Source: an uncultured Pseudomonadota bacterium
Lineage (GTDB): Bacteria > Pseudomonadota > Alphaproteobacteria > JACZXZ01
Assembly (NCBI GenBank): GCA_963749075.1
Contig: CAVVLJ010000021.1
Location: 96,001 to 160,000, forward strand
Direction of reading: 5' to 3'
Length of the DNA: 64,000 bases
Shown: positions 3,542 to 42,716 of the stretch, in pieces
Layout: the number at the start of each line of letters is the position of its first letter
Numbering within the stretch: position 1 is the stretch's first letter
Position numbers and translations under genes: made by a program
The notes under the pieces: generated by a model
The model's input: the letters and a program-made list of their open reading frames with translations, nothing else
The model's database searches: none
What the model was told of the DNA's origin: nothing

Positions 3542-4222
3542 ATGCTCGGCTATATAGCCTCGTCGCTCGCACAGCTCTCGGATGCGCGCATTCTCGCCGT
3601 GCTGCTCAAGAGTGCTGCGCTCACCGTGATCGTCATGGCGCTCCTCTTGGGCGGTGCGGCGCTCGGGCTCGCGCAAATTCCCTTCGCGCAATCCTGGCTG
3701 CATTGGGCGGCCGGCCTCTTGGGCGCGCTCGCCGCACTCTTCCTCGCAGCCGTGCTCTTCACGGTGGTGGCAAGCGTCGTGGTGAGCTTCTTCCTCGACG
3801 AGGTGGCGGATGCGGTCGAGGTGCTGCACTACCCCGAGGCGGGGCCGGCGCGGCGGCAGGGCTGGGGCGAGCTTGCCATGGCGGGGTTGCGCTTTGCCGG
3901 AACGAGCGTTCTTCTCAACCTCCTGGCACTCCCGGTCTATCTCTTCTTTCCGGCAATAAATCTGTTGTTTTTCTATGGCTTGAACGGCTATCTTGTGAGC
4001 CGGGCGTATTTCGAGCTGGTGGCCTTCCGGCGGCTTACGCCGCCCGAGGCGCGGCGTCTGCGCCTCGCCCATCCGGCTCAGATGCTCCTCGTGGGGGTAC
4101 TCACCGCCGTGGCGCTGACGGTGCCGGTGGTGAACCTGCTGGCACCCGTGTTGGCGACCGCCCTCATGGTGCATGTCTATCACGGGATGACGCGGGTGCG
4201 CCGGCCCCGCGGCATGCCATGA
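3542..4222 (+). CDS. EI24/CysZ-like membrane protein
   Basis: multiple hydrophobic helices, FLDEVADAVE..HYP and LNGYLVSRAYFELVA motifs; start inferred at MLGYI. Confidence 0.75.
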   Translation: MLGYIASSLAQLSDARILAVLLKSAALTVIVMALLLGGAALGLAQIPFAQSWLHWAAGLLGALAALFLAAVLFTVVASVVVSFFLDEVADAVEVLHYPEAGPARRQGWGELAMAGLRFAGTSVLLNLLALPVYLFFPAINLLFFYGLNGYLVSRAYFELVAFRRLTPPEARRLRLAHPAQMLLVGVLTAVALTVPVVNLLAPVLATALMVHVYHGMTRVRRPRGMP

Positions 4223-4298
4223 TGTCCGGCAGCGATGGCCTTGCGCCGCGGCGGGCTCCTCTTGCGAGGGTCCGCTCGGCTCGGGAGAGGGGGTTGCG

Positions 4299-4964
4299 AT
4301 GATCTTCAAACGCAGGAAGCCCGGCGAGGAGGGCGGCAGCGAGGCGCCCCGCGAAGAGCCGCCGCCGCCGCTCGATGCCGGCGCCGCCGCTGCCCGGCCC
4401 TTCACGCGGCCGGCCAGCTCGGAACTCCTTGCCCGGCCGTTGCCCGCCGTACCCAAGAGTGCGGTTGCGGTGCCGCCGCGGGCCGATCTCCCGCGCCGCG
4501 TCGTCGACATTCCTTCGCTGCCGCGCCGGGTCGAGCGCCCGGCAGCACCCGCGGCAGACAGCAAGAAGCTGATCGTCGGCCGCGAGATCTGCCTGAATGG
4601 CCATATTTCCGCGTGCGAGCGGCTGGTGGTCGAGGGCACGGTCGAGGCCGAGCTCAACGACTGCCGCGCCATCGAGGTGGCGGATTGCGGCACCTTCAAG
4701 GGGGCCGCCGAGGTCGAGGGCGCCGAGATCTCGGGCCGCTTCGAAGGCTCGCTCACGGTGCGCGAGCGCCTCTTGATCCGCAGTTCCGGCCGCGTCACCG
4801 GCAAGGTGCGCTACGGCCGCCTCGAGATCGAGCAGGGCGGCGAGATCAACGGCGAGGTGAGTAGCCTGGGCGCCGCCGCGGCGCCGGCCCGGCATCTCAC
4901 GGCGGCACCGGCGGTCGACAGCAGCTTCCTCGATAGCGCCGCCGCAGGCGGCGGCGAGGAGTGA
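4299..4964 (+). CDS. bactofilin (polymer-forming cytoskeletal protein)
   Basis: Pro-rich N-terminus followed by beta-helix repeats LIVGREICLNG..LVVEGTVE..ISGRFEGSL..GGEINGEV. Confidence 0.88.
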   Translation: MIFKRRKPGEEGGSEAPREEPPPPLDAGAAAARPFTRPASSELLARPLPAVPKSAVAVPPRADLPRRVVDIPSLPRRVERPAAPAADSKKLIVGREICLNGHISACERLVVEGTVEAELNDCRAIEVADCGTFKGAAEVEGAEISGRFEGSLTVRERLLIRSSGRVTGKVRYGRLEIEQGGEINGEVSSLGAAAAPARHLTAAPAVDSSFLDSAAAGGGEE

Positions 4965-5029
4965 CGCGGAGCGCCGCGCGTTAGATCGAGGGGTGCCGTC
5001 GGGGGCGGCGGACAAGGGGGGAGGTCGTC

Positions 5030-5668
5030 GTGAGGGGGGGCATGGTGCTGGCGCCGCGCGGCGGACCGCAGCTGTTGCGGACGGGCGCCGTGGCGGGCAT
5101 GCTGCTGCTCGCCGCCTGCGCCCAGCCGGGGGGGTACCCTGGCGCTGCACTCTCCGAAAAGGCTCCAAGCGGCTCAGGCGAAGGCCTTGAGGCGCACGCG
5201 GCGCCGCCGCCGCTCGCGGCCGGCGGCAAGTTGGCGCTGCCTGCGGCGGTGGCGCGTGGTGCCATGCTCGCGGCGATCCCCGTCGCGGCGAAGCGCACGG
5301 CCGGACCGGCAGGTGTTCCGACGCCCGAGGACCTCAAGGGGCTCGCCGCCGACGAGCTTGCGGCGATGCTGGGAGCACCCTCGCTCCTCAGCCGCGACGG
5401 GCCGGCGCAGATTTGGCAATATGCCGGCGGCGGCTGCGTGCTGCACGTCTTTCTCTATGACGAGCGCGGCACCTTCCGCGTGACCTATGCGGAGCTCCGC
5501 GTCGACGACCGCGAGGCGGCACGGCCGCCCTTCTGCGTCGAGCGCAGGCGGCGGCCGCAAGCGAGCGCCGGCATCAGCTTCGGCAAGACCACGCTCGGGC
5601 CCGGCGCACTGCCGGCGGGCTTCGCCAGGAAGGCGCCGCCAGGGCAGATTCTGACAGGGCGAATCTGA
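5030..5668 (+). CDS. putative lipoprotein
   Basis: LLLAAC lipobox; LGAP..RDGPAQIWQY..CVLHVFLY domain. Confidence 0.65.
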   Translation: MRGGMVLAPRGGPQLLRTGAVAGMLLLAACAQPGGYPGAALSEKAPSGSGEGLEAHAAPPPLAAGGKLALPAAVARGAMLAAIPVAAKRTAGPAGVPTPEDLKGLAADELAAMLGAPSLLSRDGPAQIWQYAGGGCVLHVFLYDERGTFRVTYAELRVDDREAARPPFCVERRRRPQASAGISFGKTTLGPGALPAGFARKAPPGQILTGRI

Positions 5669-5675
5669 GGCCCGC

Positions 5676-6320
5676 TTACGCCACCGTCTTCCCCTTGAAG
5701 CCGCAGAGATCGCGCACGATGCAGCGCCAGCACTCGGGCTTGCGCGCCTTGCACACGTAGCGGCCGTGGAGGATGAGCCAGTGGTGGGCGTGGAGCCTGA
5801 ATTCGGGCGGCACGCGCTTCAGGAGCTTCATCTCCACCTCGAGCGGCGTCTTGCCGGGGGCGAGGCCGGTGCGGTTGCCGATGCGGAAGATGTGGGTGTC
5901 GACGGCGATGGTGGGCTCGCCGAAGGCGATGTTCAGCACCACGTTCGCGGTCTTGCGCCCCACGCCCGGCAGCGCCTCGAGCTTCTCGCGCGCGCGCGGC
6001 ACTTGGCCGCCGTGCTCGCTGAGCAGGATTTCGCTCAGCGCGATCACGTGCTTCGCCTTGCTGTTATAGAGGCCGATCGTCTTGATGAAATGCTTGAGCC
6101 GCGCCTCGCCGAGCTTGAGCATCTTCGCCGGCGCGTCGGCTACCTTGAAGAGCGCGTCGGTCGCCTTGTTGACGCTGGCATCCGTCGCCTGGGCCGAGAG
6201 CACGACGGCGACCAGCAGCGTATAGGGATTGATGAAGTCGAGCTCGCCGCGCGGATTGGGCCGCTCGGCGGCAAGGCGGCGGAAGAACTCCGCCACGGCC
6301 TCCTTCCTCATGCTCGTCAT
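5676..6320 (-). CDS. nth: endonuclease III
   Basis: LVAVVLSAQATD, HhH LPGVGRKTANVVL, C-terminal 4Fe-4S motif CKARKPECWRC..C. Confidence 0.96.
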   Translation of the reverse strand: MTSMRKEAVAEFFRRLAAERPNPRGELDFINPYTLLVAVVLSAQATDASVNKATDALFKVADAPAKMLKLGEARLKHFIKTIGLYNSKAKHVIALSEILLSEHGGQVPRAREKLEALPGVGRKTANVVLNIAFGEPTIAVDTHIFRIGNRTGLAPGKTPLEVEMKLLKRVPPEFRLHAHHWLILHGRYVCKARKPECWRCIVRDLCGFKGKTVA

Positions 6321-6427
6321 GGCTTCATGCTCGTCATGGCCGCCACTCTATACGGGCAGGCGCGCCGCCGGAAGACGCGGCTCGCGGCACTTTACCGCGC
6401 CCTGAGCGCCACCCTATAGTGCCCGAC

Positions 6428-6967
6428 ATGAGTGCCCCGCCCGACCCCAACGCGAGCGAAACCGCCGAGCCCCTCCTCTTCGATGCGGTGCTCGTGCCGC
6501 ACCGCAGCCTGGAGCCGGCCGGCTTCTGGCTGCTCATGGCGGTCGTCAGCGCCGTGAGCTTCGTCTCCGGCATGTATTTCGTGCTGCGCGGCGCCTGGCC
6601 GGTGTTCGGCTATTTCGGGCTCGACGTGCTGCTGCTCTATCTCGCCTTCCGGGCGAGCTACCGCTCGGCGCGGTTCTGCGAGACGATCAGGCTCGGGGCC
6701 GACGCCCTCGTCGTCGAGCGCTTGGGTCCGCGCGGCCGCCGCGCGCGCTGGAGCTTCCAGCCCTACTGGCTCAAGGTCGAGATCGACGAGCCGCCGCAGC
6801 ACGGCAGCCAGCTGCGCCTCACCTCCCACGGCCGCTCGCTCGTCGTCGGCGCCTTCCTGCCGCCCGGCGAGCGCTACGAGGTCGCCCAGGCCCTGCGCGC
6901 GGCACTCAGCCGCCAGCGCGAAGGCCGCAATGCCGGCGACTGGGCCGCGGCGGCCGAGCACGGCTGA
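6428..6967 (+). CDS. DUF2244 membrane protein
   Basis: PHRSL..GF, GAWPVFGYFGLDV, GAFLPPGER motifs; usual neighbour of nth. Confidence 0.85.
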   Translation: MSAPPDPNASETAEPLLFDAVLVPHRSLEPAGFWLLMAVVSAVSFVSGMYFVLRGAWPVFGYFGLDVLLLYLAFRASYRSARFCETIRLGADALVVERLGPRGRRARWSFQPYWLKVEIDEPPQHGSQLRLTSHGRSLVVGAFLPPGERYEVAQALRAALSRQREGRNAGDWAAAAEHG

Positions 6968-7355
6968 GACCGCCCGGCGCGCGCCGGGCGAGACGACAAG
7001 GGCGATGGCCAAGATCGCACTCCCCGAGAACGCCGTGCTCATGGTCATCGACCTGCAGAAGGCGATCGACGATCCGCGCTGGGGCCGGCGCAACAATCCG
7101 GGCTGCGAGGCGAGGGTGGCGGCACTCCTTGCGGCTTGGCGCGCGCGCGGCATGCCCATCGTCCATATTCGCCACGATTCGCGCAAGGCCAACTCGACCT
7201 ACCGCCCGGACCGGCCGGGCCACGGTTTCAAGCCGGAGACCGCATCCCTCGCCGGCGAGACCGTGATCGCGAAAGAGACCAACAGCGCCTTCATCGGCAC
7301 CGAGCTCGAGCCCTGGCTGCGCAGCTGCGGCTACGGCACCCTCGTCGTCGCCGGC

Positions 7356-8110
7356 TACAATCGCGACAAGTTGCGCTATCCGAGCGATCTGACGGATGCG
7401 GAATGGCAGCATATCGAGCCGCTGATACCACCGGCCAAGAGTGGCGGCGGCAAGCGGAGCGTCAGACATGCGCGAGGTGGTCAACGGTGTGATGTATGTC
7501 CTGAGCACAGGGTGCCAGTGGCGCTACATCCCAAAAGACCTGCCGCCGCGGAGCACGGTGAACGGCTACTTTTGCCTATGGGGCTACAACGGCGCGTTGG
7601 AGAAGATTCACCACGCGCTCTACGTCAAATGCCGCGAGCAGGATGAAGCCGAGGCGAGCCCCACCGCCTGCATCATCGATAGCCAGAGCGTGAAAAGCGC
7701 AGAAAAAGGGGGGCCTGCATCGATCCCCATGGGTTCGATGCAGGCAAGTTGATCAAAGGCAAGAAGCGCCACATCCTCGTCGATACGCTGGGTTTGTTGC
7801 TGCACGCGCTGGTTACGTCCGCTGATGTTCAGGATCGCGACGGCGGGCTGATGGTCTTGGCCACGTTGTTCGGACAGTTCCCGTTCCTCAAGAAGCTGTT
7901 TGCCGACAGCGCCTATGCGGGGCCGGTGTTCCATGACGGCCTGGCGAACATCATGCCGGACCTCGTCACCGAAATTGTGCGCCGTTCGCGATCGGGCCAA
8001 GGCCTTCGTCGTTCTGCCCAAACGATGGATCGTCGAACGCACTATCGGTTGGCTGGGTCGTTGTCGCCGGCTGGCCAAGGACTGGGAAAATCTCAACCAT
8101 AACGCGCTCG
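7356..8110 (+). mobile_element. IS5-family transposase fragment, truncated at both ends and frameshifted
   Basis: [33 protein letters not shown], slippery AAAAAGGGGG at ~7703, [22 protein letters not shown]; extra frameshifts at ~7466 and ~7985; no IRs seen. Confidence 0.92.
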
Positions 8111-8189
8111 TTTAATTTATTAAAATATAATATTTAATTATTTAATATAATTAAATAAATTTAATTAAATAATAATTAAAAAAAAAAAT
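8111..8189. other. 79-bp tract containing only A and T
   Basis: no G or C between 8111 and 8189; ends in an 11-A run followed by one T. Confidence 0.95.
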
Positions 8190-8224
8190 GAGTTCCCGCG
8201 CGGGCTCGTGCGGGTCCTAGAAGA

Positions 8225-8443
8225 TTATGCTTTTTGGTTCTTGAGAAGACGCGCTCTGATTGCGTCGCGTCCGCGCTCAAGGTCGTCTTCCATGAGAAGA
8301 TTACCCTGCTGCATAGACACGTTGCCGCGCGTAAATCGGCGTATCACGCTGTCGGCAATCTCGTCGTCTTCGGCGGCGGCATCGATGGGCGTGATGCCGC
8401 GCTTCAGCAAGAGACGAATTGCAAGGGTCCGCTCATTCTTCAT
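8225..8443 (-). CDS. hypothetical protein (72 aa)
   Basis: ATG with GAGGGAG RBS upstream; protein-like composition; hairpin plus T-run downstream on the - strand. Confidence 0.55.
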   Translation of the reverse strand: MKNERTLAIRLLLKRGITPIDAAAEDDEIADSVIRRFTRGNVSMQQGNLLMEDDLERGRDAIRARLLKNQKA

Positions 8444-8665
8444 CGTAGCTCCCTCGGGTGATCAGCGTTTCTTGCCATCCGCCCGATGGTCGGTTGTACG
8501 CCCTACCCCGCGCCGCCTCGCGGTCTAGGGAGTTGCGCGCATCCTACTGCGACATTTTGTCACAGCCCCACAGATTGGCTAGACAGGGGTCTGTACGCTT
8601 GCGGGCTTCTCGCGTGATCATAGCGTGTCCTCGCGTACGCGACACCGCTAATACACCTGAGACGC

Positions 8666-8734
8666 CAACGATTTGTGGCCGGGCGCTAATCGGACCACAA
8701 CATGTTGAGCAAGGGCACCCTACTCCAACATATT
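8666..8734. promoter_or_regulatory. NrdR-box-like palindrome(s)
   Basis: ACCACAACATGTTGA at 8694-8708; degenerate copies CAACGATTTGTG (8666, 32 bp away) and CAACATATT (8726). Confidence 0.45.
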
Positions 8735-8895
8735 CGTTGAATTAAGCGTTTCTCGGCACTTCCTTCCCCCGCATCTCAATTCGTGGCAATGCGGGACCTA
8801 GCCGACTTGCGGGGCAAGAGTTAACCGGCGATGATGTTAAATAGGGGGGCGCGCGCCAACAACTAGGAGAGATTGCTCATACTAAGTGTGCGGCA

Positions 8896-9216
8896 TCAGC
8901 ATAGGCCAACACTGGCGCGGAATGGGCTGCTCCCATTCGCGCCAGAATACCGGAGATAGATTGATTTGGCGGTCGGCAACACCGTCACATTATCCCCCTC
9001 AATCGACCCGCGCCTTTTCCGGCGCTCTTCGTCGAATCTCTTTTTTAGCTCTGGCTCCGCCTTCAATCGTGCGTCGATAAATGCGCGCAGAGCGTCCGCG
9101 ATGATTCGGTGCTCGGGCGCGCCGCGATGGGCTTCGCAAAAATCGACAAGGTCGCTGGCGAGGGGTTCCCGCAGCTTCCACCGGCCTTTCGGCGGATTGG
9201 GGTCGGCTGTCACCAT
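8896..9216 (-). CDS. small RHH-like DNA-binding protein (putative)
   Basis: short beta-like segment (KGRWKL) then two helices LASDLVDFCEAH..IIADALRAFI; homologue at 41070-41261; GTTACCAG direct repeat (9236-9253) upstream. Confidence 0.6.
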   Translation of the reverse strand: MVTADPNPPKGRWKLREPLASDLVDFCEAHRGAPEHRIIADALRAFIDARLKAEPELKKRFDEERRKRRGSIEGDNVTVLPTAKSIYLRYSGANGSSPFRASVGLC

Positions 9217-9298
9217 GCTTCGGACAGTACCAACTGTTACCAGCCGTTACCAGATTTTGCTTGACGGCGCTGGCGGCAGAGGGGCAAGATAGGCGCAC

Positions 9299-9324
9299 AA
9301 AAAGAGCGCCCCCGAAGGGGCGCT
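9299..9324 (-). terminator. rho-independent terminator
   Basis: AGCGCCCC-UUCG-GGGGCGCU followed by CUUUUU on the - strand. Confidence 0.85.
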
Positions 9325-9597
9325 GAGTTGCCGGATCAGTTTCTACGGGTGGCCGCGTGTGAGGCGCGGCCATTTCCGTATGTGAGCTTCGATGGTTTCC
9401 CATCGTCCGCGTCTGCACCTGAGGTATCTCCTTACGGAGACCATCCGCCCCCAGGGCAGTCCGCACGCGAATGCATCCATGTGCTGCTCCGCCACGGTGG
9501 GCAGGTTTTGGCCTGCCGACCTCGGAGCGCCCGATGCGCCCCGCCCAATCAGGGCGCGGGCGCCGTCCTTAGACGGAGGGCCGGAGCATTCGCGGCA
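9299..9597 (-). ncRNA. candidate large structured ncRNA (unknown family)
   Basis: at least 8 helices; GAAA, GUAA and UUCG tetraloops and a G-U pair occur only on the - strand; TTGACC-N17 promoter-like sequence upstream; terminator downstream. Confidence 0.6.
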
Positions 9598-9635
9598 GAA
9601 AGGGAACCAACAAGATCGCGTCGGTCAATCCAAAG

Positions 9636-9678
9636 TTATCCACAAGAACTAGCGGTTTGTTAATATTTCTGTGGATAA
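9636..9678. promoter_or_regulatory. two perfect DnaA boxes in inverted orientation
   Basis: TTATCCACA at 9636-9644 and TGTGGATAA at 9670-9678. Confidence 0.75.
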
Positions 9679-9942
9679 CCTTCGTCGATCAAGCGCCGGT
9701 CATCACCAACAACTCGGTCGAGGCGACGGTGCGCATGGCGGGCAACCTCGGTTTCGCCACCTATGTCGTCGCCGACGGCTGCTTCACGGTGGACAAGCGC
9801 GATCTTTCAGGCGAGCTCCATCCCGCCGAGCGCGTCCACGCGCTCTCGCTTGCCAACATGCAGGGCGAATATGCCCAAGTGGTAGAGAGCCGCGAGCTCC
9901 TCGCGGCCCTCGCCCGCACGCCCGGCAGCTCGTCCTGAGCGA

Positions 9943-9972: not shown

Positions 9973-10200
9973 ATGGTAGCGCTCCACCGTGACGCCGATC
10001 GGAAAATTGCCGTCTACGGGCGCGAGCATGGCGTGCCCCATTTCCACGTGGAGGGCCGCGGATTTCGCTGCTCTATCATCATCGGAACGGAAGAGCCGAT
10101 CATCGGGACAGCTCCCCGCGCGATCTTGAAAGCGGCTTGCGCTTGGGCGCGGGAGAATCGCCAAATGCTGATGGCGAAATGGCAGGAGCTGAATTCATGA
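9973..10200 (+). CDS. DUF4160 family protein (HicA-like toxin)
   Basis: EHGVPHFHV motif, W..EN..LM.KW C-terminus. Confidence 0.8.
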   Translation: MVALHRDADRKIAVYGREHGVPHFHVEGRGFRCSIIIGTEEPIIGTAPRAILKAACAWARENRQMLMAKWQELNS

Positions 10201-10637
10201 GTGCCGAAGACAAGCTCCGCACGATCGCGGCGGTGAAAGCCAAAGCTCCCGCGGCGATCGCGGTCAAATGGTCCGACGGCACGCGTGCCGATCTCGACCT
10301 CGGCGCGCTGCTCAGCAAAAAAGCCTACAGCGCTTTGCGCGATCGAGCCGAATTCGCGCGCGTTCGCGTGGGCGAATGGGGTCACTCCGTCGAATGGCCG
10401 TCCGGAGCAGAGCTCGGCGCGGAGACGCTCTGGCTGGAGACCTTGTCGGCCACCGGCCGCGCGGATGCGCGAAGCTTCCTCGAATGGCGCCTGAGGCACG
10501 GCCTGTCTTTGAGCAAGACCGCAGAGGCATTGGGCCTTTCCCGGCGGATGGTTGCCTACTACTCGAACGGGGAGAAGCCCGTGCCGCGCCCGATTTTGCT
10601 CGCCTGCAAGGGCTGGGAAGTCAGTCACGCGGCATAG
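10197..10637 (+). CDS. DUF2442 + HTH antitoxin-like protein
   Basis: WSDG..DL..F..V.VGEWGHSVEWPSG, C-terminal HTH AEALGLSRRMVAYY; ATGA overlap with the upstream gene. Confidence 0.8.
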   Translation: MSAEDKLRTIAAVKAKAPAAIAVKWSDGTRADLDLGALLSKKAYSALRDRAEFARVRVGEWGHSVEWPSGAELGAETLWLETLSATGRADARSFLEWRLRHGLSLSKTAEALGLSRRMVAYYSNGEKPVPRPILLACKGWEVSHAA

Positions 10638-39696: not shown

Positions 39697-40929
39697 ATGG
39701 CGCAGGCTCGATCGACGGCGGGCGAAGCGGCCCCCTCGCGCATCGCGGCGCTGATTGCGGCGCGGGAGCCCGGACGCGGCCTCGCCGGCGCCTTCTATGA
39801 TGACCCCGAGATCTACGAGCGCGACCTCGCGCGCATCTTCCACCGCCACTGGCTCTGCGCCGGCCATGCCAGCGCTGCCGCGGCACCGGGCGACTATTTC
39901 CTCGCCAACGCCGGCGGCGAGGAGATCATCGTCGCCCGCGGCCGCGACGGCGAGCTCAATGCGCTTCTCAACGTCTGCCGCCACCGCGGCTCGCGCATTT
40001 GCAGCGTGCCGGCCGGTCATGCCGACTTCTTCGTCTGCCCCTACCACGCCTGGAGCTACGCGCTCGACGGCAGCCTCGCGGCGGCGCGGCACATGCCGCA
40101 AGGCTTCGATAGGACCGCGCACGGGCTCAAGCGGCTGCATCTCCGCGTGGCCGAGGGGCTCGTCTTCGTCTCCTTCGCAAGCACGCCGCTCGATTTCACG
40201 CCGGTTGCCGGCGCGCTCAGCGGTTCCTGCGGGCGCTACGGCTGGGCTGCGGCCAAGGTGGCGCACCGCGAGCGCTACGCCATCGCGGCCAACTGGAAGC
40301 TCGCCGTCGAGAACTATGTGGAATGCTACCATTGCAGCCCGGCGCATCCCGAGTATTCGCGCCTGCATGCCCTCGAGCAGCCGCTGCCGCGCATCGCCGC
40401 CCTCAATGCGCGCATGGCCGAGCGCACCGCGGCACTCGGCATCGCGGTGGCGGAGTGCCACCAGTGGCGCACCTCCGAGCGTGGCGCCGAGGCGATCGAC
40501 TGCTTCCGCTATGCGCTCTACGAAGGTGTCGCGACCGGCAGCCCCGACGGCCGGCCGGTGGCACCGCTCATGGGCGATTTCACCGGCTATGACGGGGGTG
40601 TGACCTCCGTGCACGTCGGAGGTGCGAGCTTCCTCCTCGCCTATCCCGATCACGGCGTCGTCTACCGCTTTGCGCCCAAGGGGCCGGATGCCGTTGAGAT
40701 GGAGCTCGTCTGGCTCGTGCGCGGCGATGCCCGGGAAGGCGTCGATTACGACAAGGAGCGCCTCGTCTGGCTCTGGCAGGTGACGAGCGAGGCGGACAAG
40801 CGCATCATCGAGCGCACGGCCGAGGGCGTACGCTCGCGCTTCTTCGAGCCGGGTCCGCTGGCACCCATGGAATACAACGAGCGCCGCTACATCGAGTGGT
40901 ATCTCGCGGAGATTTCCGGTCTTATGTAG
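39697..40929 (+). CDS. Rieske non-heme iron oxygenase alpha subunit (GbcA/choline monooxygenase-like)
   Basis: CRHRG..CPYHAW, ANWK..ENYVECYHC..HPE. Confidence 0.9.
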   Translation: MAQARSTAGEAAPSRIAALIAAREPGRGLAGAFYDDPEIYERDLARIFHRHWLCAGHASAAAAPGDYFLANAGGEEIIVARGRDGELNALLNVCRHRGSRICSVPAGHADFFVCPYHAWSYALDGSLAAARHMPQGFDRTAHGLKRLHLRVAEGLVFVSFASTPLDFTPVAGALSGSCGRYGWAAAKVAHRERYAIAANWKLAVENYVECYHCSPAHPEYSRLHALEQPLPRIAALNARMAERTAALGIAVAECHQWRTSERGAEAIDCFRYALYEGVATGSPDGRPVAPLMGDFTGYDGGVTSVHVGGASFLLAYPDHGVVYRFAPKGPDAVEMELVWLVRGDAREGVDYDKERLVWLWQVTSEADKRIIERTAEGVRSRFFEPGPLAPMEYNERRYIEWYLAEISGLM

Positions 40930-41069
40930 CTGACGCACCGATTGACGGCTAATTATTGCGTATAACAAGAAAAACCCGCAATAAAACTGATAAATCCTTG
41001 AAGTAGCCAAAATTCGATCCCTTAATAATCCAGTCATCAAGCATTTTCCTTAAGCACAGGAGCGCTTGA

Positions 41070-41261
41070 ATGACTGACCTAGACCCCGATCTGGCATCCG
41101 CCTTCTGCGACGCTCATTTTGAGGGATCGGCAAAGAAGGTGATGCAGGGCGCCCTGCGCACGTTCATCAAGGATCAACTATCTAGGGATTTGGCGACGAA
41201 AGAGCGATCCGACGAGCTTCAGAAAAAGCGGAATGGCGGGAAGCCAGACGGCTCGAATTGA
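41070..41261 (+). CDS. small RHH-like protein, homologue of 8896-9216
   Basis: AGGAG RBS; LA..FCDAH..ALRTFI..L..KER.DE..KKR.G. Confidence 0.6.
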   Translation: MTDLDPDLASAFCDAHFEGSAKKVMQGALRTFIKDQLSRDLATKERSDELQKKRNGGKPDGSN

Positions 41262-41512
41262 CGGTATTCGGGCACAAATGGGACCAATCCCGAGTCGCAA
41301 TCATGCTCCTGTGTGGCAGTGCCACGATCATCGGCGAACGTGTTACGGGCGTCCTGCCTGTGCCAGGCCCTTAGGAAGGCAGCCGCTAAGCGATTCAAAC
41401 GACTCGGTTTTGTTATAGAAGGCGTCTACACTGCATCGAGTCGCTTGCCCGCTTGAGGCAGAGCGCTAATTCCTCTTGCTCCTTTGATTCCGAGAGAGTA
41501 GAGAGTTGTGTA

Positions 41513-41527
41513 TCAATATCTTGTGGT
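41513..41527. promoter_or_regulatory. NrdR-box-like palindrome upstream of pyrE
   Basis: TCAATATCTTGTGGT. Confidence 0.5.
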
Positions 41528-41608
41528 TGGGATGGGCTCCACCGCATACCCCTGGGCGACCTCGTCACGATTAGTCAGGCCTTGGGTATAAAACCTAGGG
41601 AAACGCAC

Positions 41609-42190
41609 ATGGCTCAGGTCGCCAGTAAGCCCGCTCGATTCGATCAGGACGGCCGCCGTGAGCGTCTGCGTCATATCATCGCAGATATGTGCTTCACGAC
41701 GGGGCCGACATTCCGGCTCGCCTCGGGAAGGGAAAGCAATTTCTATTTCAATCTTAAAAAGGCGATGCTCGACCCCGAGGGGATTGAGTTGTTGGCTGAT
41801 CTCATATTGGAAGAGACCGCTGGCATTCGTGCCGACTATGTGGGCGGTCTCGCAATGGGGGCAGTCCCGGTCGTCGTCGCGGTAGTTATGAAAAGCCGCG
41901 GAGGAAACCGGCCGCTGAGAGGGTTCTGGGTTCGCAAAGAGGCCAAGGGCCACGGGACTAACGACTTGACGGACGGCCATATCGTTGACGGCTCGCGAGT
42001 TATCATCGTTGATGACGTGACGACCACGGGCGGCTCTATCAAGCAGGCGATAGAGGAGGTCAAAAGGCATAACTGCGAAATCGCCGCTGTCATAACGATC
42101 GTTGATCGATTGGAGGGCGCTAAGGAAGCCCTTGCTAAGGATGGCGTCGAGCTTATTGCGCTGTATGATACGAACGATTTCCTCCCCTAA
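41609..42190 (+). CDS. pyrE: orotate phosphoribosyltransferase-like protein
   Basis: FRLASGRESNFYF, GGLAMGAVP, VRKEAKGHGT, IVDDVTTTGGS, IVDR. Confidence 0.88.
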   Translation: MAQVASKPARFDQDGRRERLRHIIADMCFTTGPTFRLASGRESNFYFNLKKAMLDPEGIELLADLILEETAGIRADYVGGLAMGAVPVVVAVVMKSRGGNRPLRGFWVRKEAKGHGTNDLTDGHIVDGSRVIIVDDVTTTGGSIKQAIEEVKRHNCEIAAVITIVDRLEGAKEALAKDGVELIALYDTNDFLP

Positions 42191-42244
42191 AGGTTCACCA
42201 GAGTTTGCGGGTTCCCCCTTAAAGGGAAACGGTGACTCGTGGGG

Positions 42245-42508
42245 ATGCATAGCGACGAGATCGCGGCAATAGCAACATTCGCCCTAGAGCACTCCACCGC
42301 TTATCCTGTCCTGTCCCTCGTGCTCCTCACCGTCGTTGATCGTATCGAAAACGAATACGACGGCGGCGCTATAACAGAAGATCGAGCGGCACAGCTTGAT
42401 GAGCTTGAACCGTTGATCCGAGCTGCCATGACAGCGCCCGGTGACTTTGCGAAGTTACAAACGATTTGCAGAAAATTTATGACGGTATTCGATATTGGCG
42501 CGCACTGA
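42245..42508 (+). CDS. hypothetical protein
   Basis: ~87-aa helical-looking ORF co-oriented with pyrE. Confidence 0.45.
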   Translation: MHSDEIAAIATFALEHSTAYPVLSLVLLTVVDRIENEYDGGAITEDRAAQLDELEPLIRAAMTAPGDFAKLQTICRKFMTVFDIGAH

Positions 42509-42716
42509 GGATCCGATTCTGGACCCCGGCTAGGTGCAAGACACCCACTCCGATGCCAAGGCCGGTCCCAATGAGAAACAGAATAATGGTGAGGTCGTCG
42601 CCTTGTGGCATAGCGCTACCCCCTGAGCACGCCCCTTTTGTATAGCAGGAAATGATACCGAGAATGGTGAGTCAGCTACATAAGGCCGGAAATTTCCTGA
42701 GCGCTCCCGCGTCCGC

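What the first reader, a model, noticed from the sequence alone, without database searches (positions are those of the whole stretch)
9299..9678. Unannotated ~300-nt structured RNA behind a pair of perfect DnaA boxes
Seen: a long-range helix CGCGAATGC/GCATTCGCG (9466-9474 / 9586-9594) closes a multi-branch domain (GCTCCG/CGGAGC, GGCAGG/CCTGCC, CGCCCG/CGGGCG, GCGCCC/GGGCGC, CCGTC/GACGG). On the - strand it is followed by a long stem capped by GUAA (9432-9435), a CGAUGG-GAAA-CCAUCG hairpin (9390-9405), the TGGCCGCG/CGCGGCCA hairpin (9344-9380), then GGCAAC and a UUCG terminator (9305-9324). The GNRA and UUCG loops and a G-U wobble appear only on the - strand. Upstream lie TTGACC (9628-9623)-N17-TCCCTT and the inverted TTATCCACA pair (9636-9678). 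Established: GNRA/UUCG loops mark functional RNAs, and TTATCCACA is the consensus DnaA box. I see no RNase P, tmRNA, tRNA or group I/II intron signature, and the overlapping ORFs look like shadows. Inference: a possibly novel, DnaA/cell-cycle-coupled large ncRNA carried on a mobile cassette.
Basis: partly seen in the sequence, partly recalled or inferred. Interest (0 to 1): 0.85.

Follow-up and report, generated by a model that had tools for sequence, protein, structure and literature searches.

The report
Mini-protein gene inside a hyper-folded mRNA
The supposed 300-base non-coding RNA is the tightly folded messenger of an unannotated 45-residue basic protein carried on mobile DNA, with two DnaA-type boxes in front of it; the fold is real, but it is not a new stand-alone RNA.

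Summary
All quoted helices, loops, the terminator and the inverted TTATCCACA pair are at the stated coordinates. The minus strand folds far better than shuffles (z = -6.9).

The interpretation needs correcting. One "shadow" ORF is real: minus strand, AUG 9480 to stop 9343, 45 aa, preceded by GGAG.
- G003 keeps the same length and stop (pN/pS 0.40).
- 27 metagenomic mini-proteins match it.
- 11 further genomic loci carry it, with codon-position identity 0.56/0.64/0.32.
- All 12 loci tested have a Shine-Dalgarno motif.

So the unit is an mRNA of roughly 320 nt: a 105-nt multi-branch leader that buries the ribosome site, a hairpin-filled mini-ORF, and an intrinsic terminator. Unusual foldedness is a family trait (z -2.1 to -9.5 in 12 of 12 loci; flank controls -1.3 to +0.6).

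The unit is mobile. It lies in a 2.3-kb insert splitting an isochorismatase gene here, and inside an IS1595 transposon in G003. The DnaA boxes occur in only 2 of 13 loci. No Rfam, Pfam or PDB relative was found.

Best reading: a translation-gated mini-protein gene, type-I-toxin-like in layout, possibly DnaA-modulated. The protein's function is unknown.

The parts
7356..9698 (.). 2343-bp composite insert that splits an isochorismatase-family gene (N-part ends at 7355, C-part resumes at 9699)
   Evidence: Pfam PF00857 matches profile positions 2-122 on the N-part and 122-173 on the C-part. Intact alleles in 5 of 5 congeners give the junction ...GTCGGC|GTCATC.... An intact allele is also seen as a loose end in run X1.
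7356..8103 (+). Internal fragment of an IS5-family element, with both ends missing
   Evidence: DUF4096 and DDE_Tnp_1 matches. A full copy at G000:C16 aligns only to window 7351-8110, and that copy's ORF starts upstream and ends downstream of this stretch.
9679..9698 (-). Last 20 nt of the conserved module. Homology to G003 starts here, at the insert boundary.
   Evidence: Alignment; junction.
9632..9682 (.). 13-bp inverted repeat holding two perfect TTATCCACA boxes (9636-9644 on the plus strand, 9670-9678 on the minus strand), 25 nt apart
   Evidence: (pair I16). G003 has three boxes with 0-1 mismatch at the same place.
9600..9628 (-). Promoter-like TTGACC-N17-TCCCTT. The -35 element is conserved in G003; the -10 is poor. 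The transcription start is not determined.
   Evidence: It does not pass the consensus scan.
9496..9600 (-). Structured 5' leader: a multi-branch domain with closing helix P1, P2 with two hairpins, and P3. It is the best-conserved segment (86% identity to G003).
   Evidence: Folds; segment identities. A G-C to A-U double change at 9512/9505 in a third natural variant keeps the P3 hairpin.
9487..9490 (-). Shine-Dalgarno-like GGAG, 6 nt before the AUG. It is base-paired in helix P3 (CGGAGC with GCUCCG).
   Evidence: Probability of being unpaired is <= 0.02 in the window, G003 and G191 transcripts. A purine-rich SD motif is present in 12 of 12 loci.
9343..9480 (-). Mini-ORF of 45 aa plus stop (MDAFACGLPWGRMVSVRRYLRCRRGRWETIEAHIRKWPRLTRGHP). 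An in-frame GTG lies at 9495-9493.
   Evidence: ORF list; conservation; 27 homologues; alignment A5; coding signature; AlphaFold2 model with four beta-strands.
9305..9324 (-). Intrinsic terminator (8-bp stem, UUCG loop, U-run)
   Evidence: An equivalent terminator with a different sequence sits at the same place in G003.
9603..9609 (-). 5' arm of a predicted 5'-3' closing helix that pairs with 9324-9332, just before the terminator
   Evidence: Helix 1 of the two-sequence consensus: 7 pairs, 1 double change, 4 wobble changes. The evidence is weak because there are only two sequences.
9261..9290 (+). Convergent promoter-like site TTGACG-N18-CAAGAT. It points back into the 3' end of the mRNA and could drive an antisense RNA.
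   Evidence: Conserved in G003 (TTGACG-N17-CAGGAT) and G191 (TTGACG-N17-CATTCT). A custom scan found such antisense sites in 5 of 13 loci against 1 sense-strand hit. No transcript data exist.
8896..9216 (-). Downstream 106-aa ORF, preceded by three GTTACCA-like repeats at 9227-9252. It is not homologous to the downstream ORFs in G003 or G191.
   Evidence: no Pfam match, no BLASTP similarity. The 'ribbon-helix-helix-like' impression is by eye only.

Best explanation
Window 9300-~9625 (minus strand) is one transcription unit. It is the mRNA of an unannotated 45-aa, strongly basic, beta-rich mini-protein, not a stand-alone non-coding RNA.

Layout of the message:
- A leader of about 105 nt forms a closed multi-branch domain. 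Helix P3 pairs with the Shine-Dalgarno GGAG. Closing helix P1 reaches into codons 8-10.
- The coding part is itself stacked into three hairpins.
- An intrinsic terminator ends the RNA.

Inferred mechanism: the full-length RNA is a stable but poorly translatable form, and the mini-protein is made only when the leader is opened by processing, an antisense or protein partner, or co-transcriptional timing. This is how type I toxin mRNAs are gated.

The two DnaA-consensus boxes just upstream probably let host DnaA modulate or insulate the promoter in this lineage.

The 445-bp unit (9255-9698) travels as cargo of mobile DNA.

Shown: the structure, the coding status, the terminator, mobility, and the presence of the boxes.
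Inferred: translational gating, the antisense RNA, DnaA control, and any toxicity. What the protein does is unknown.
For: **Fold**
- z -6.94 on the minus strand.
- 88 of 88 consensus pairs are kept in G003, with 6 double and 9 wobble changes. With partners slid by 1-3 columns, 41-46% of cells pair and there are 0-3 double changes.

**Strand**
- The terminator is on the minus strand in both homologues, with different sequences.

**Coding**
- The G003 ORF has the same length and stop position (TAG versus TGA).
- Over the 50 sense codons counted from the upstream in-frame GTG/ATG, 10 codons differ synonymously and 12 non-synonymously, and the stop codon also differs. pN/pS is 0.40, and the permutation P for this many synonymous changes is 0.013. 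The frame stays open in only 35% of permutations.
- In a third natural variant, 5 of 9 changes are synonymous third-position changes.
- Exhaustive phmmer finds 27 proteins with E <= 1e-3, most 42-57 aa long, and four (P0001, P0010, P0018, P0019) start exactly at this AUG.
- Alignment A5 gives the motif V.VR.YLR.R.G.WETV..H.RKWP.
- The profile finds 11 more genomic loci.
- Nucleotide identity by codon position is 0.56/0.64/0.32 over 10 pairs of 5 loci.
- An SD motif sits 5-10 nt before the start in 12 of 12 loci.
- AlphaFold2 gives four beta-strands with core pLDDT 84-94.

**Gating**
- P(unpaired) of the SD is <= 0.02 in the window, G003 and G191.
- The leader is more conserved than the ORF (86% versus 77%).
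- A G-C to A-U covariation occurs in the leader hairpin.

**Family trait**
- All 12 loci that could be folded have z between -2.1 and -9.5. Six flank controls range from -1.3 to +0.6.

**Mobility**
-.

**DnaA boxes**
- They are conserved between the window and G003 although the neighbouring small regulator-like genes are unrelated. That favours a host factor over an element-encoded repressor.
Against: - No transcript data exist. No RNA run holds the region, so the strand, ends and translation are all inferred.
- The close-homologue statistics rest on one full sequence plus fragments of two variants. The pN/pS P-value of 0.013 is uncorrected for my having looked at six frames.
- Single-sequence MFE structures transfer poorly between the window and G003: 17 pairs kept against 18 broken, and 13 against 31. 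Parts of the drawn structure, especially the 3' half and the 5'-3' helix, are therefore uncertain.
- SD sequestration is not uniform. Mean P(unpaired) of the SD region is 0.03-0.59 across 12 loci, and it is below the transcript mean in 8 of 12.
- No acceptable sigma-70 promoter was found on the minus strand.
- DnaA boxes are absent from the other 11 loci.
- The mini-protein is not hydrophobic, unlike most type I toxins.
- The covariance model of the leader does not recognise the distant loci. The leader fold is therefore lineage-specific or too diverged to recognise.
Confidence: 0.72

Rival explanations
1. A type I toxin-antitoxin-like module. This is a more specific form of the best explanation. 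The mini-protein would be a growth-inhibiting effector. Its compact mRNA would be translationally inert, and a short antisense RNA fired from the convergent TTGACG promoter (9261-9290, plus strand) would pair with the mRNA 3' end to control it, as in 3'-overlapping systems.
For: - A small ORF sits in a hyper-stable mRNA.
- The SD is buried.
- A predicted 5'-3' closing helix exists.
- A convergent promoter-like site lies 78-98 nt past the stop in the window, G003 and G191.
- The unit lies on mobile DNA and next to defence-type genes: DUF499 in G191 and a UvrD-like helicase in G089.
- It has a patchy, roughly 2% distribution.
Against: - The peptide is Arg/Trp-rich with net charge about +8 and has no hydrophobic helix (sequence).
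- The antisense promoter-like site is seen in only 5 of 13 loci, and no antisense terminator passes the scan.
- There is no PADLOC hit for the neighbours and no Rfam toxin or antitoxin RNA match.
- Toxicity is untested.
Confidence: 0.25
2. A genuine stand-alone structured ncRNA. On this reading the 45-codon frame is an accident of a GC-rich, conserved RNA.
For: - Very stable fold with GNRA loops on the minus strand.
- Compensatory changes.
- No protein-family match.
- The word-indexed protein search found nothing.
- Gene callers did not call the ORF in G000 or G003.
Against: - 27 homologous mini-proteins at 38-65% identity, with a protein-like conservation pattern.
- Third-codon-position identity of 0.32 against 0.56 and 0.64 at positions 1 and 2 across distant loci.
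- An SD motif in 12 of 12 loci.
- Start and stop kept in G003.
- The nucleotide-level RNA model does not find the distant loci, while the protein profile does.
Confidence: 0.06
3. The leader (9496-9600) is a ligand- or protein-sensing cis-regulator: a riboswitch, a thermometer, or an autoregulatory operator bound by the basic mini-protein itself.
For: - The leader is the most conserved segment (86% to G003; 3 changes in 60 nt in variant 4, two of them compensatory).
- It has a three-way-junction architecture enclosing the ribosome site.
- Long structured leaders occur in the other loci.
Against: - No Rfam riboswitch match even at E <= 10.
- No sequence or structure match of the leader in distant loci. 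A ligand pocket would normally be conserved.
- Only three close variants are known.
Confidence: 0.12
4. A guide or scaffold RNA of a mobile element (IS110 bridge RNA, IscB/TnpB omega-RNA, retron ncRNA), or a single-stranded-DNA structure (oriT, ssi or sso) at an element end.
For: - It lies about 70 nt from the end of the insert, behind a terminal inverted repeat.
- An IS1595 transposase lies within about 1 kb in 4 of 13 loci.
Against: - No recombinase, nuclease or reverse-transcriptase gene accompanies it in the window or in G003's module.
- No Rfam match to HEARO or related families.
- No systematic complementarity (k >= 8) to the flanks or element ends.
- In G003 the module is 430 bp inside the transposon end.
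- In G666 the IS, as defined by a second copy, ends 118 nt before the mini-ORF.
Confidence: 0.03
5. The TTATCCACA pair is the functional element and the RNA is incidental. It would be a DnaA-titrating or DnaA-reactivating (datA/DARS-like) site, or the remnant of a plasmid-type origin carried by the element.
For: - Two perfect boxes here and three near-perfect boxes in G003.
- Only 9 perfect boxes occur in the whole genome.
- An 85-bp pure A/T stretch lies 1.4 kb away.
Against: - No replication initiator gene is present.
- The boxes are absent from the 11 other loci.
- The A/T stretch is not part of the DNA shared with G003.
- The boxes sit exactly where a promoter for the unit is expected.
Confidence: 0.05

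Closest known systems
Type I toxin mRNAs (hok/sok; aapA1/IsoA1; bsrG/SR4 and txpA/RatA with 3'-overlapping antisense RNAs). These names and properties are recalled from the literature, not from a call.
   Same: - A tiny ORF inside a compact, very stable mRNA whose ribosome-binding site is base-paired.
- A predicted long-range 5'-3' pairing.
- A convergent promoter-like site at the 3' end.
- Location on mobile DNA.
- Missed by annotation.
   Different: - The peptide is Arg-rich, beta-structured and lacks a membrane helix.
- The antisense RNA is not shown and is not predicted in most loci.
- There is no toxicity evidence and no sequence or Rfam relationship.
Structured translational leaders and operators (ribosomal-protein leaders, RNA thermometers, riboswitches), recalled.
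   Same: A conserved multi-branch leader encloses the SD and start codon. The leader is more conserved than the coding part.
   Different: No match to any Rfam cis-regulatory family. The leader fold is not recognisable in distant family members. The whole mRNA is hyper-structured, including the ORF, not just the leader.
DnaA-box-controlled promoters (dnaA, nrdAB and mioC in E. coli; sda in B. subtilis: recalled). uvrB and iraD appeared only as title and abstract lines in the search listing.
   Same: Consensus 9-mers TTATCCACA are placed at or over a promoter region.
   Different: Here the boxes sit on mobile DNA in front of a mini-protein gene, as an inverted pair that also forms a 13-bp palindrome. 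Binding and regulation are untested. The boxes are not a family-wide feature.
   Same: About 300 nt long, multi-branch, with GNRA loops, no annotation, and associated with mobile elements.
   Different: It contains a conserved translated-looking ORF and matches no Rfam model.

Membership tests
Any Rfam 15 family (RNase P, tmRNA, 6S, riboswitches, HEARO, ptaRNA1, etc.) | Covariance-model score at or above the family's gathering cut-off | tested here: not met
   There were 0 matches in the whole 64-kb window at gathering thresholds. At E <= 10 on 8100-9800 there were 9 weak matches, all far below their cut-offs and none spanning the structure.
Stand-alone non-coding RNA | No conserved, translatable reading frame | tested here: not met
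   The 45-aa frame is conserved with excess synonymous change, homologues and an SD motif.
Type I toxin-antitoxin | Small ORF (<60 aa) in a stable, highly structured mRNA | tested here: met
   (z -2.1 to -9.5 in 12 of 12 loci).
Type I toxin-antitoxin | Ribosome-binding site sequestered in the full-length mRNA | tested here: inconclusive
   P(unpaired) is <= 0.02 for the SD in the window, G003 and G191. Across 12 loci the SD region averages 0.03-0.59 and is below the transcript mean in 8 of 12. This is prediction only.
Type I toxin-antitoxin | Cis- or trans-encoded antisense RNA antitoxin | tested here: inconclusive
   A convergent promoter-like site occurs in 5 of 13 loci, and it is TTGACG-type in 3. 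There is no transcript evidence, and the runs found are DNA only.
Type I toxin-antitoxin | Hydrophobic, membrane-active toxin peptide (the usual case) | tested here: not met
   The sequence has 11 Arg/Lys against 3 Asp/Glu and no hydrophobic stretch. The AlphaFold2 model is four short beta-strands.
Type I toxin-antitoxin | Toxicity on expression, neutralised by the RNA | not testable with these tools
   This needs an experiment.
DnaA-regulated promoter / DnaA-box cluster | Consensus 9-mer TTATCCACA (recalled consensus) in two or more copies | tested here: met
   There are two perfect copies in the window. G003 has one perfect copy and two copies with 1 mismatch. Only 9 copies occur genome-wide.
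DnaA-regulated promoter / DnaA-box cluster | Boxes conserved wherever the regulated gene occurs | tested here: not met
   None was found within 400-450 nt upstream in the 11 other loci. One of those loci holds withheld N bases.
DnaA-regulated promoter / DnaA-box cluster | DnaA binding and an effect on transcription | not testable with these tools
   This needs EMSA or ChIP and reporter assays.
Mobile-element guide RNAs (IS110 bridge RNA, IscB/TnpB omega-RNA, retron msr-msd) | Adjacent cognate recombinase, nuclease or reverse transcriptase, and loops or guide complementary to target or donor DNA | tested here: not met
   No such gene is present. There is no systematic complementarity and no Rfam match.
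IS1595-family transposon cargo | Located between IS1595-type terminal inverted repeats flanked by a target-site duplication | tested here: inconclusive
   This is met in G003: 15-bp perfect TIRs at C177 4161 and 8873, an 8-9 bp duplication, and empty sites in G001 and G005. It is not met in the window, where no TIR lies near 7356-9698. In G666 the IS ends before the mini-ORF.
Known protein families (Pfam, NCBIfam, PHROGs, PADLOC, PDB) | Significant profile or fold match for the mini-protein | tested here: not met
   Pfam gave 0 matches at E <= 1. The PDB profile search gave a best E of 0.03, a chance match to the PTH receptor. Foldseek against PDB gave a best E of 4.2. The ESM Atlas returned only unnamed clusters. 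NCBIfam, PHROGs and PADLOC were run on the neighbouring genes, not on the mini-protein.

The most novel reading that the evidence does not exclude
The unit founds a new class of mobile, RNA-gated effector genes. A non-membrane, arginine-rich beta-hairpin mini-protein of 25-45 aa is kept silent by an exceptionally folded mRNA. In this lineage it is released under control of the host replication initiator DnaA and a 3' antisense RNA. That would be a type-I-like addiction or defence module coupled to the cell cycle, widespread but invisible to annotation in soil Alphaproteobacteria.
Probability: 0.15. Interest if true: 0.75.

Novelty: new variant of a known kind. Interest (0 to 1): 0.42.

Why it matters
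This finding corrects a tempting call. GNRA loops, a large negative folding z-score and compensatory changes did not make this a non-coding RNA. A 45-codon frame hidden in the hairpins is the conserved payload.

The positive result is a previously unnamed mini-protein family. All database members that I looked up are labelled 'hypothetical protein' or carry no name. Its messages are consistently hyper-structured, and it rides on transposons and island DNA.

If the gating and DnaA link hold, it would give a testable example of a mobile element tying expression of a small effector to the host's replication state. If they do not, it remains an ordinary, if neat, unannotated small gene with a structured leader.

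Tried and rejected
**Database and homology searches**
- Rfam at gathering thresholds and at E <= 10 gave nothing usable.
- blastn in distant mode of 8150-9700 against plasmids and phages gave no match.
- The covariance model R1 of the 194-nt core found only G000 and G003 among 11 genomes of the order and 151 of the class. It did not detect the distant mini-ORF loci even with filters off.
- The pattern GAGCAGCACATGGNTGCAT gave 6 hits in genome contigs, of which only the G003 record was real. It gave 23 hits in metagenome contigs, none real. Its 15-mer core gave 69 chance hits in viral contigs.
- A better pattern from the GUAA stem gave 0 hits in viral contigs. In 401 class genomes it hit only G000 and G003, even with 3 mismatches allowed.
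- The word-indexed protein search found nothing for the plus-strand 111-aa ORF or for the mini-ORF. Only the exhaustive HMMER search found relatives.

**Coding tests on other frames**
- The plus-strand 111-aa ORF is open in G003 too, but it shows no coding signature. In variant 4, 1 of 12 changes falls at its third codon position (my count). Against G003, non-synonymous changes dominate.

**Expression data**
- No RNA holder was listed among the sequencing runs. Four soil-metagenome DNA runs from 3 studies hold parts of the region.

**Guide-RNA idea**
- There is no systematic complementarity to the flanks.

**Neighbouring small ORFs**
- The 'ribbon-helix-helix' labels for the downstream small ORFs are unsupported. 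There is no Pfam, PHROGs, PADLOC or NCBIfam support and no pairwise similarity.

**IS boundaries**
- The inverted-repeat search gave no terminal repeats for the IS next to the mini-ORF in G692 or G666.

**Earlier notes of this scan**
- There are none for this genome or sequence.
- The word search returned unrelated genomes with 'structured RNA behind DnaA boxes' claims, which I did not test.

**Literature**
- Three searches found nothing on such a mini-protein or on a DnaA-boxed small gene on IS1595 elements. I saw only the search listings and abstract openings. I read no paper text, and supplements were closed.
Full report
**1. Observation**

- the long-range helix 9466-9474 / 9586-9594;
- the inner helices;
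- GUAA at 9432-9435 (minus strand);
- the CGAUGG-GAAA-CCAUCG hairpin at 9390-9405;
- the TGGCCGCG/CGCGGCCA hairpin at 9350-9372;
- the UUCG-capped terminator at 9324-9305;
- TTGACC at 9628-9623;
- the inverted TTATCCACA pair at 9636-9678.

The fold is well beyond chance. The minus strand of 9299-9630 folds at -175.4 kcal/mol against -138.8 +/- 5.3 for shuffles (z -6.94, 0 of 100 shuffles as good). The plus strand gives z -5.24.

No Rfam family reaches its cut-off anywhere in the window. A permissive scan of 8100-9800 gives only noise.

**2. Context**

The region lies at the right end of a 2343-bp insert (7356-9698) that splits an isochorismatase-family gene.
- Pfam matches profile positions 2-122 on one side and 122-173 on the other.
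- All five congeners have the uninterrupted gene, which gives the exact junction.

The insert is a mosaic:
- an IS5-family fragment lacking both ends (7356-8103);
- an 85-bp stretch of pure A/T (8105-8190);
- 1.5 kb holding two small unassigned ORFs and the structured region.

The structured region is single-copy in its genome.

**3. The close homologue and the unit's limits**

Among the window's genome plus 60 relatives, one other genome, the congener G003, has an 81%-identical copy. Its record title is 'MAG: Alphaproteobacteria bacterium'.

Homology is confined to window ~9255-9698, about 445 bp. Nothing else is shared between the two loci (blastn and tblastx). The unit comprises:
- 20 terminal nucleotides;
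- the DnaA-box region;
- a conserved TTGAC;
- the structured part;
- a terminator;
- a conserved TTGACG...CA(A/G)GAT motif on the other strand.

In G003 the unit sits 430 bp inside a 4.74-kb IS1595-family transposon. That transposon has 15-bp perfect terminal repeats and an 8-9-bp target duplication, and it has inserted in an MFS transporter gene. Empty sites exist in G001 and G005. The unit is therefore mobile cargo.

Soil-metagenome DNA runs hold at least two further variants. No RNA run was listed.

**4. Structure and strand**

The two-sequence consensus keeps 88 of 88 pairs, with 6 double and 9 wobble changes. When partners are slid by 1-3 columns, 41-46% of cells pair and there are 0-3 double changes.

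This is weaker than it looks. The consensus was fitted to both sequences, and structures predicted from one sequence alone transfer poorly:
- window structure tested on G003: 17 changed pairs kept, 18 broken;
- G003 structure tested on the window: 13 kept, 31 broken.

Independent support comes from variant 4, seen in runs of two studies. Its changes at 9505 and 9512 turn a G-C pair of the leader hairpin GGCAGG/CCUGCC into A-U.

The minus strand is indicated by three things:
- an intrinsic terminator at the same place in both homologues, with different sequences;
- the GNRA loops;
- the gene described next.

**5. The turn: a real mini-gene**

Testing all six frames over the aligned region showed no coding signal overall. 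One frame, however, had more synonymous changes than the others. It contains a minus-strand ORF with GTG at 9495, AUG at 9480 and stop at 9345-9343.

Evidence from the close relatives:
- G003 has ATG where the window has GTG. It also has the same AUG and a stop at the same codon (TGA against TAG).
- Among the 50 sense codons, 10 differ synonymously and 12 non-synonymously, and the stop codon itself differs. pN/pS is 0.40.
- Permuting the 32 substitutions gives as many synonymous changes in 1.3% of trials. The frame stays open in 35% of trials. This P-value is not corrected for the six frames I inspected.
- In variant 4, 5 of 9 changes inside the ORF are synonymous third-position changes (P = 0.11 on its own).

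Evidence from wider searches:
- An exhaustive phmmer search of 1.84 billion representative proteins found 27 hits with E <= 1e-3 (best 6.8e-10). Most are 42-57 aa long, and four (P0001, P0010, P0018, P0019) begin at the residue matching the AUG at 9480.
- I aligned 24 of the 27 with the window and G003 proteins. I left out P0008, P0009 and P0014, which are long or repetitive. The motif is M.AF....GR.V.VR.YLR.R.G.WETV.SH.RKWPR, with invariant V, V, Y, H and P.
- The eight members I looked up are labelled 'hypothetical protein' or carry no name.
- The profile found the gene in 6 of 301 class genomes (including G000 and G003) and in 8 of 401 phylum-sample genomes (including G000). That adds 11 new loci.
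- Across five distant loci (10 pairs; G003 dropped out through my regular expression), nucleotide identity is 0.56, 0.64 and 0.32 at codon positions 1, 2 and 3.
- All 12 loci examined have a purine-rich Shine-Dalgarno motif 5-10 nt before the start.

Searches for known relatives of the protein:
- AlphaFold2 with the alignment predicts four short beta-strands (mean pLDDT 73.6; core 84-94).
- No Pfam, PDB-sequence, PDB-fold or named ESM Atlas relative was found.

**6. What the RNA structure does**

Helix P3 pairs CGGAGC with GCUCCG and so covers the GGAG. The probability that the GGAG is unpaired is <= 0.02 in the window, G003 and G191 transcripts.

Closing helix P1 pairs leader nucleotides with codons 8-10. 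The GAAA loop is simply the Trp-Glu-Thr codons, UGG GAA ACC.

Identity to G003 by segment:

| Segment | Identity to G003 |
|---|---|
| Leader | 86% |
| Start region | 93% |
| ORF | 77% |
| 3' UTR plus terminator | 39% |

High foldedness is a family trait.
- Twelve of the 13 loci could be folded, and all have z between -2.1 and -9.5. One locus holds withheld N bases and was skipped.
- Six flank controls range from -1.3 to +0.6.
- Burial of the SD is a tendency, not a rule.

I therefore read the unit as a translation-gated mRNA. Gating itself is inferred.

**7. The DnaA boxes**

- The two perfect 9-mers are 2 of only 9 in the genome.
- G003 has three boxes with 0-1 mismatch, one of them in the 'loop' of the palindrome. 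That fits protein sites better than a hairpin.
- The boxes are conserved although the neighbouring small ORFs, with their different repeat 'operators', are unrelated. That favours a host factor over an element-encoded repressor.
- None of the 11 other loci has such boxes within 400-450 nt upstream.
- No good sigma-70 promoter is detectable on the minus strand.

DnaA control is a reasonable but untested, lineage-specific add-on.

**8. Neighbours**

- A convergent promoter-like site (TTGACG, 17-18 nt, CANNNT) lies 78-98 nt past the stop in the window, G003 and G191. Weaker ones occur in two more loci, giving 5 of 13. It could fire an antisense RNA into the mRNA 3' end.
- In those three loci a small ORF follows on the same strand. 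The three ORFs are not demonstrably related to each other or to any family.
- G079 carries, downstream, a homologue of G003's 155-aa ORF (E 3e-19).
- An IS1595 transposase lies within about 1 kb in G003, G089, G666 and G692, which is 4 of 13 loci. In G666 the IS, as defined by a second copy, stops 118 nt short of the mini-ORF.
- Defence-type neighbours occur elsewhere: DUF499 in G191 and a UvrD-type helicase in G089.

**9. Verdict**

The 'novel large ncRNA' reading is replaced by 'hyper-structured mRNA of an unannotated mini-protein on mobile DNA'.

In layout it works most like a type I toxin message. It does not qualify as a member, because the peptide is not hydrophobic, the antisense RNA is unproven and toxicity is untested.

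Interest is moderate. The protein family and its consistent RNA foldedness are new as far as my searches show, but the kind of thing is familiar.

Noticed in passing
window 40926-42690: A cassette without a transposase, bounded by IS1595-type terminal inverted repeats (CTTATGTAGCTGACGCACC... / ...GGTGAGTCAGCTACATAAGGCC). It carries a 245-aa pyrE-like phosphoribosyltransferase (TIGR00336, E 6.9e-41; weak PADLOC PRTase_III-A and ShosT matches) and an 89-aa ORF. It may be a mobile insertion cassette with defence-like cargo.
   Followed up: partly
window 8105-8190: An 85-bp stretch of pure A/T in a 60-70% GC genome. It joins a doubly truncated IS5 fragment to the 1.5-kb DNA that bears the mini-gene. 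It could be a recombination scar, a strong nucleoid-protein site or an assembly artefact. It was not covered by the reads I laid.
   Followed up: no
L124 (G003:C177) 4151-8894: A 4.74-kb IS1595-family transposon with an 8-9 bp target duplication, GCTTTTGC(A), inside an MFS transporter gene. Besides the mini-gene unit it carries five ORFs without any family match (73, 155, 121, 201 and 245 aa).
   Followed up: partly
L142 7366-7749 and L124 5311-5778: A 127-155-aa protein family with an AIRIFDP motif and no Pfam match recurs next to the mini-gene in two unrelated genomes (35% identity, E 3e-19).
   Followed up: partly
window 9973-10637: Two small overlapping ORFs (75 aa and 166 aa) lie just after the isochorismatase remnant. 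By eye they look like a DUF4160/DUF2442-type pair. I did not search them.
   Followed up: no
P0009: The mini-protein motif recurs six times in a 1840-aa phage-type polyvalent protein that also has Mu-F, ADP-ribosyltransferase, poly(A)-polymerase and HD domains. This hints that the 25-residue beta-hairpin unit is a reusable nucleic-acid-binding repeat.
   Followed up: no
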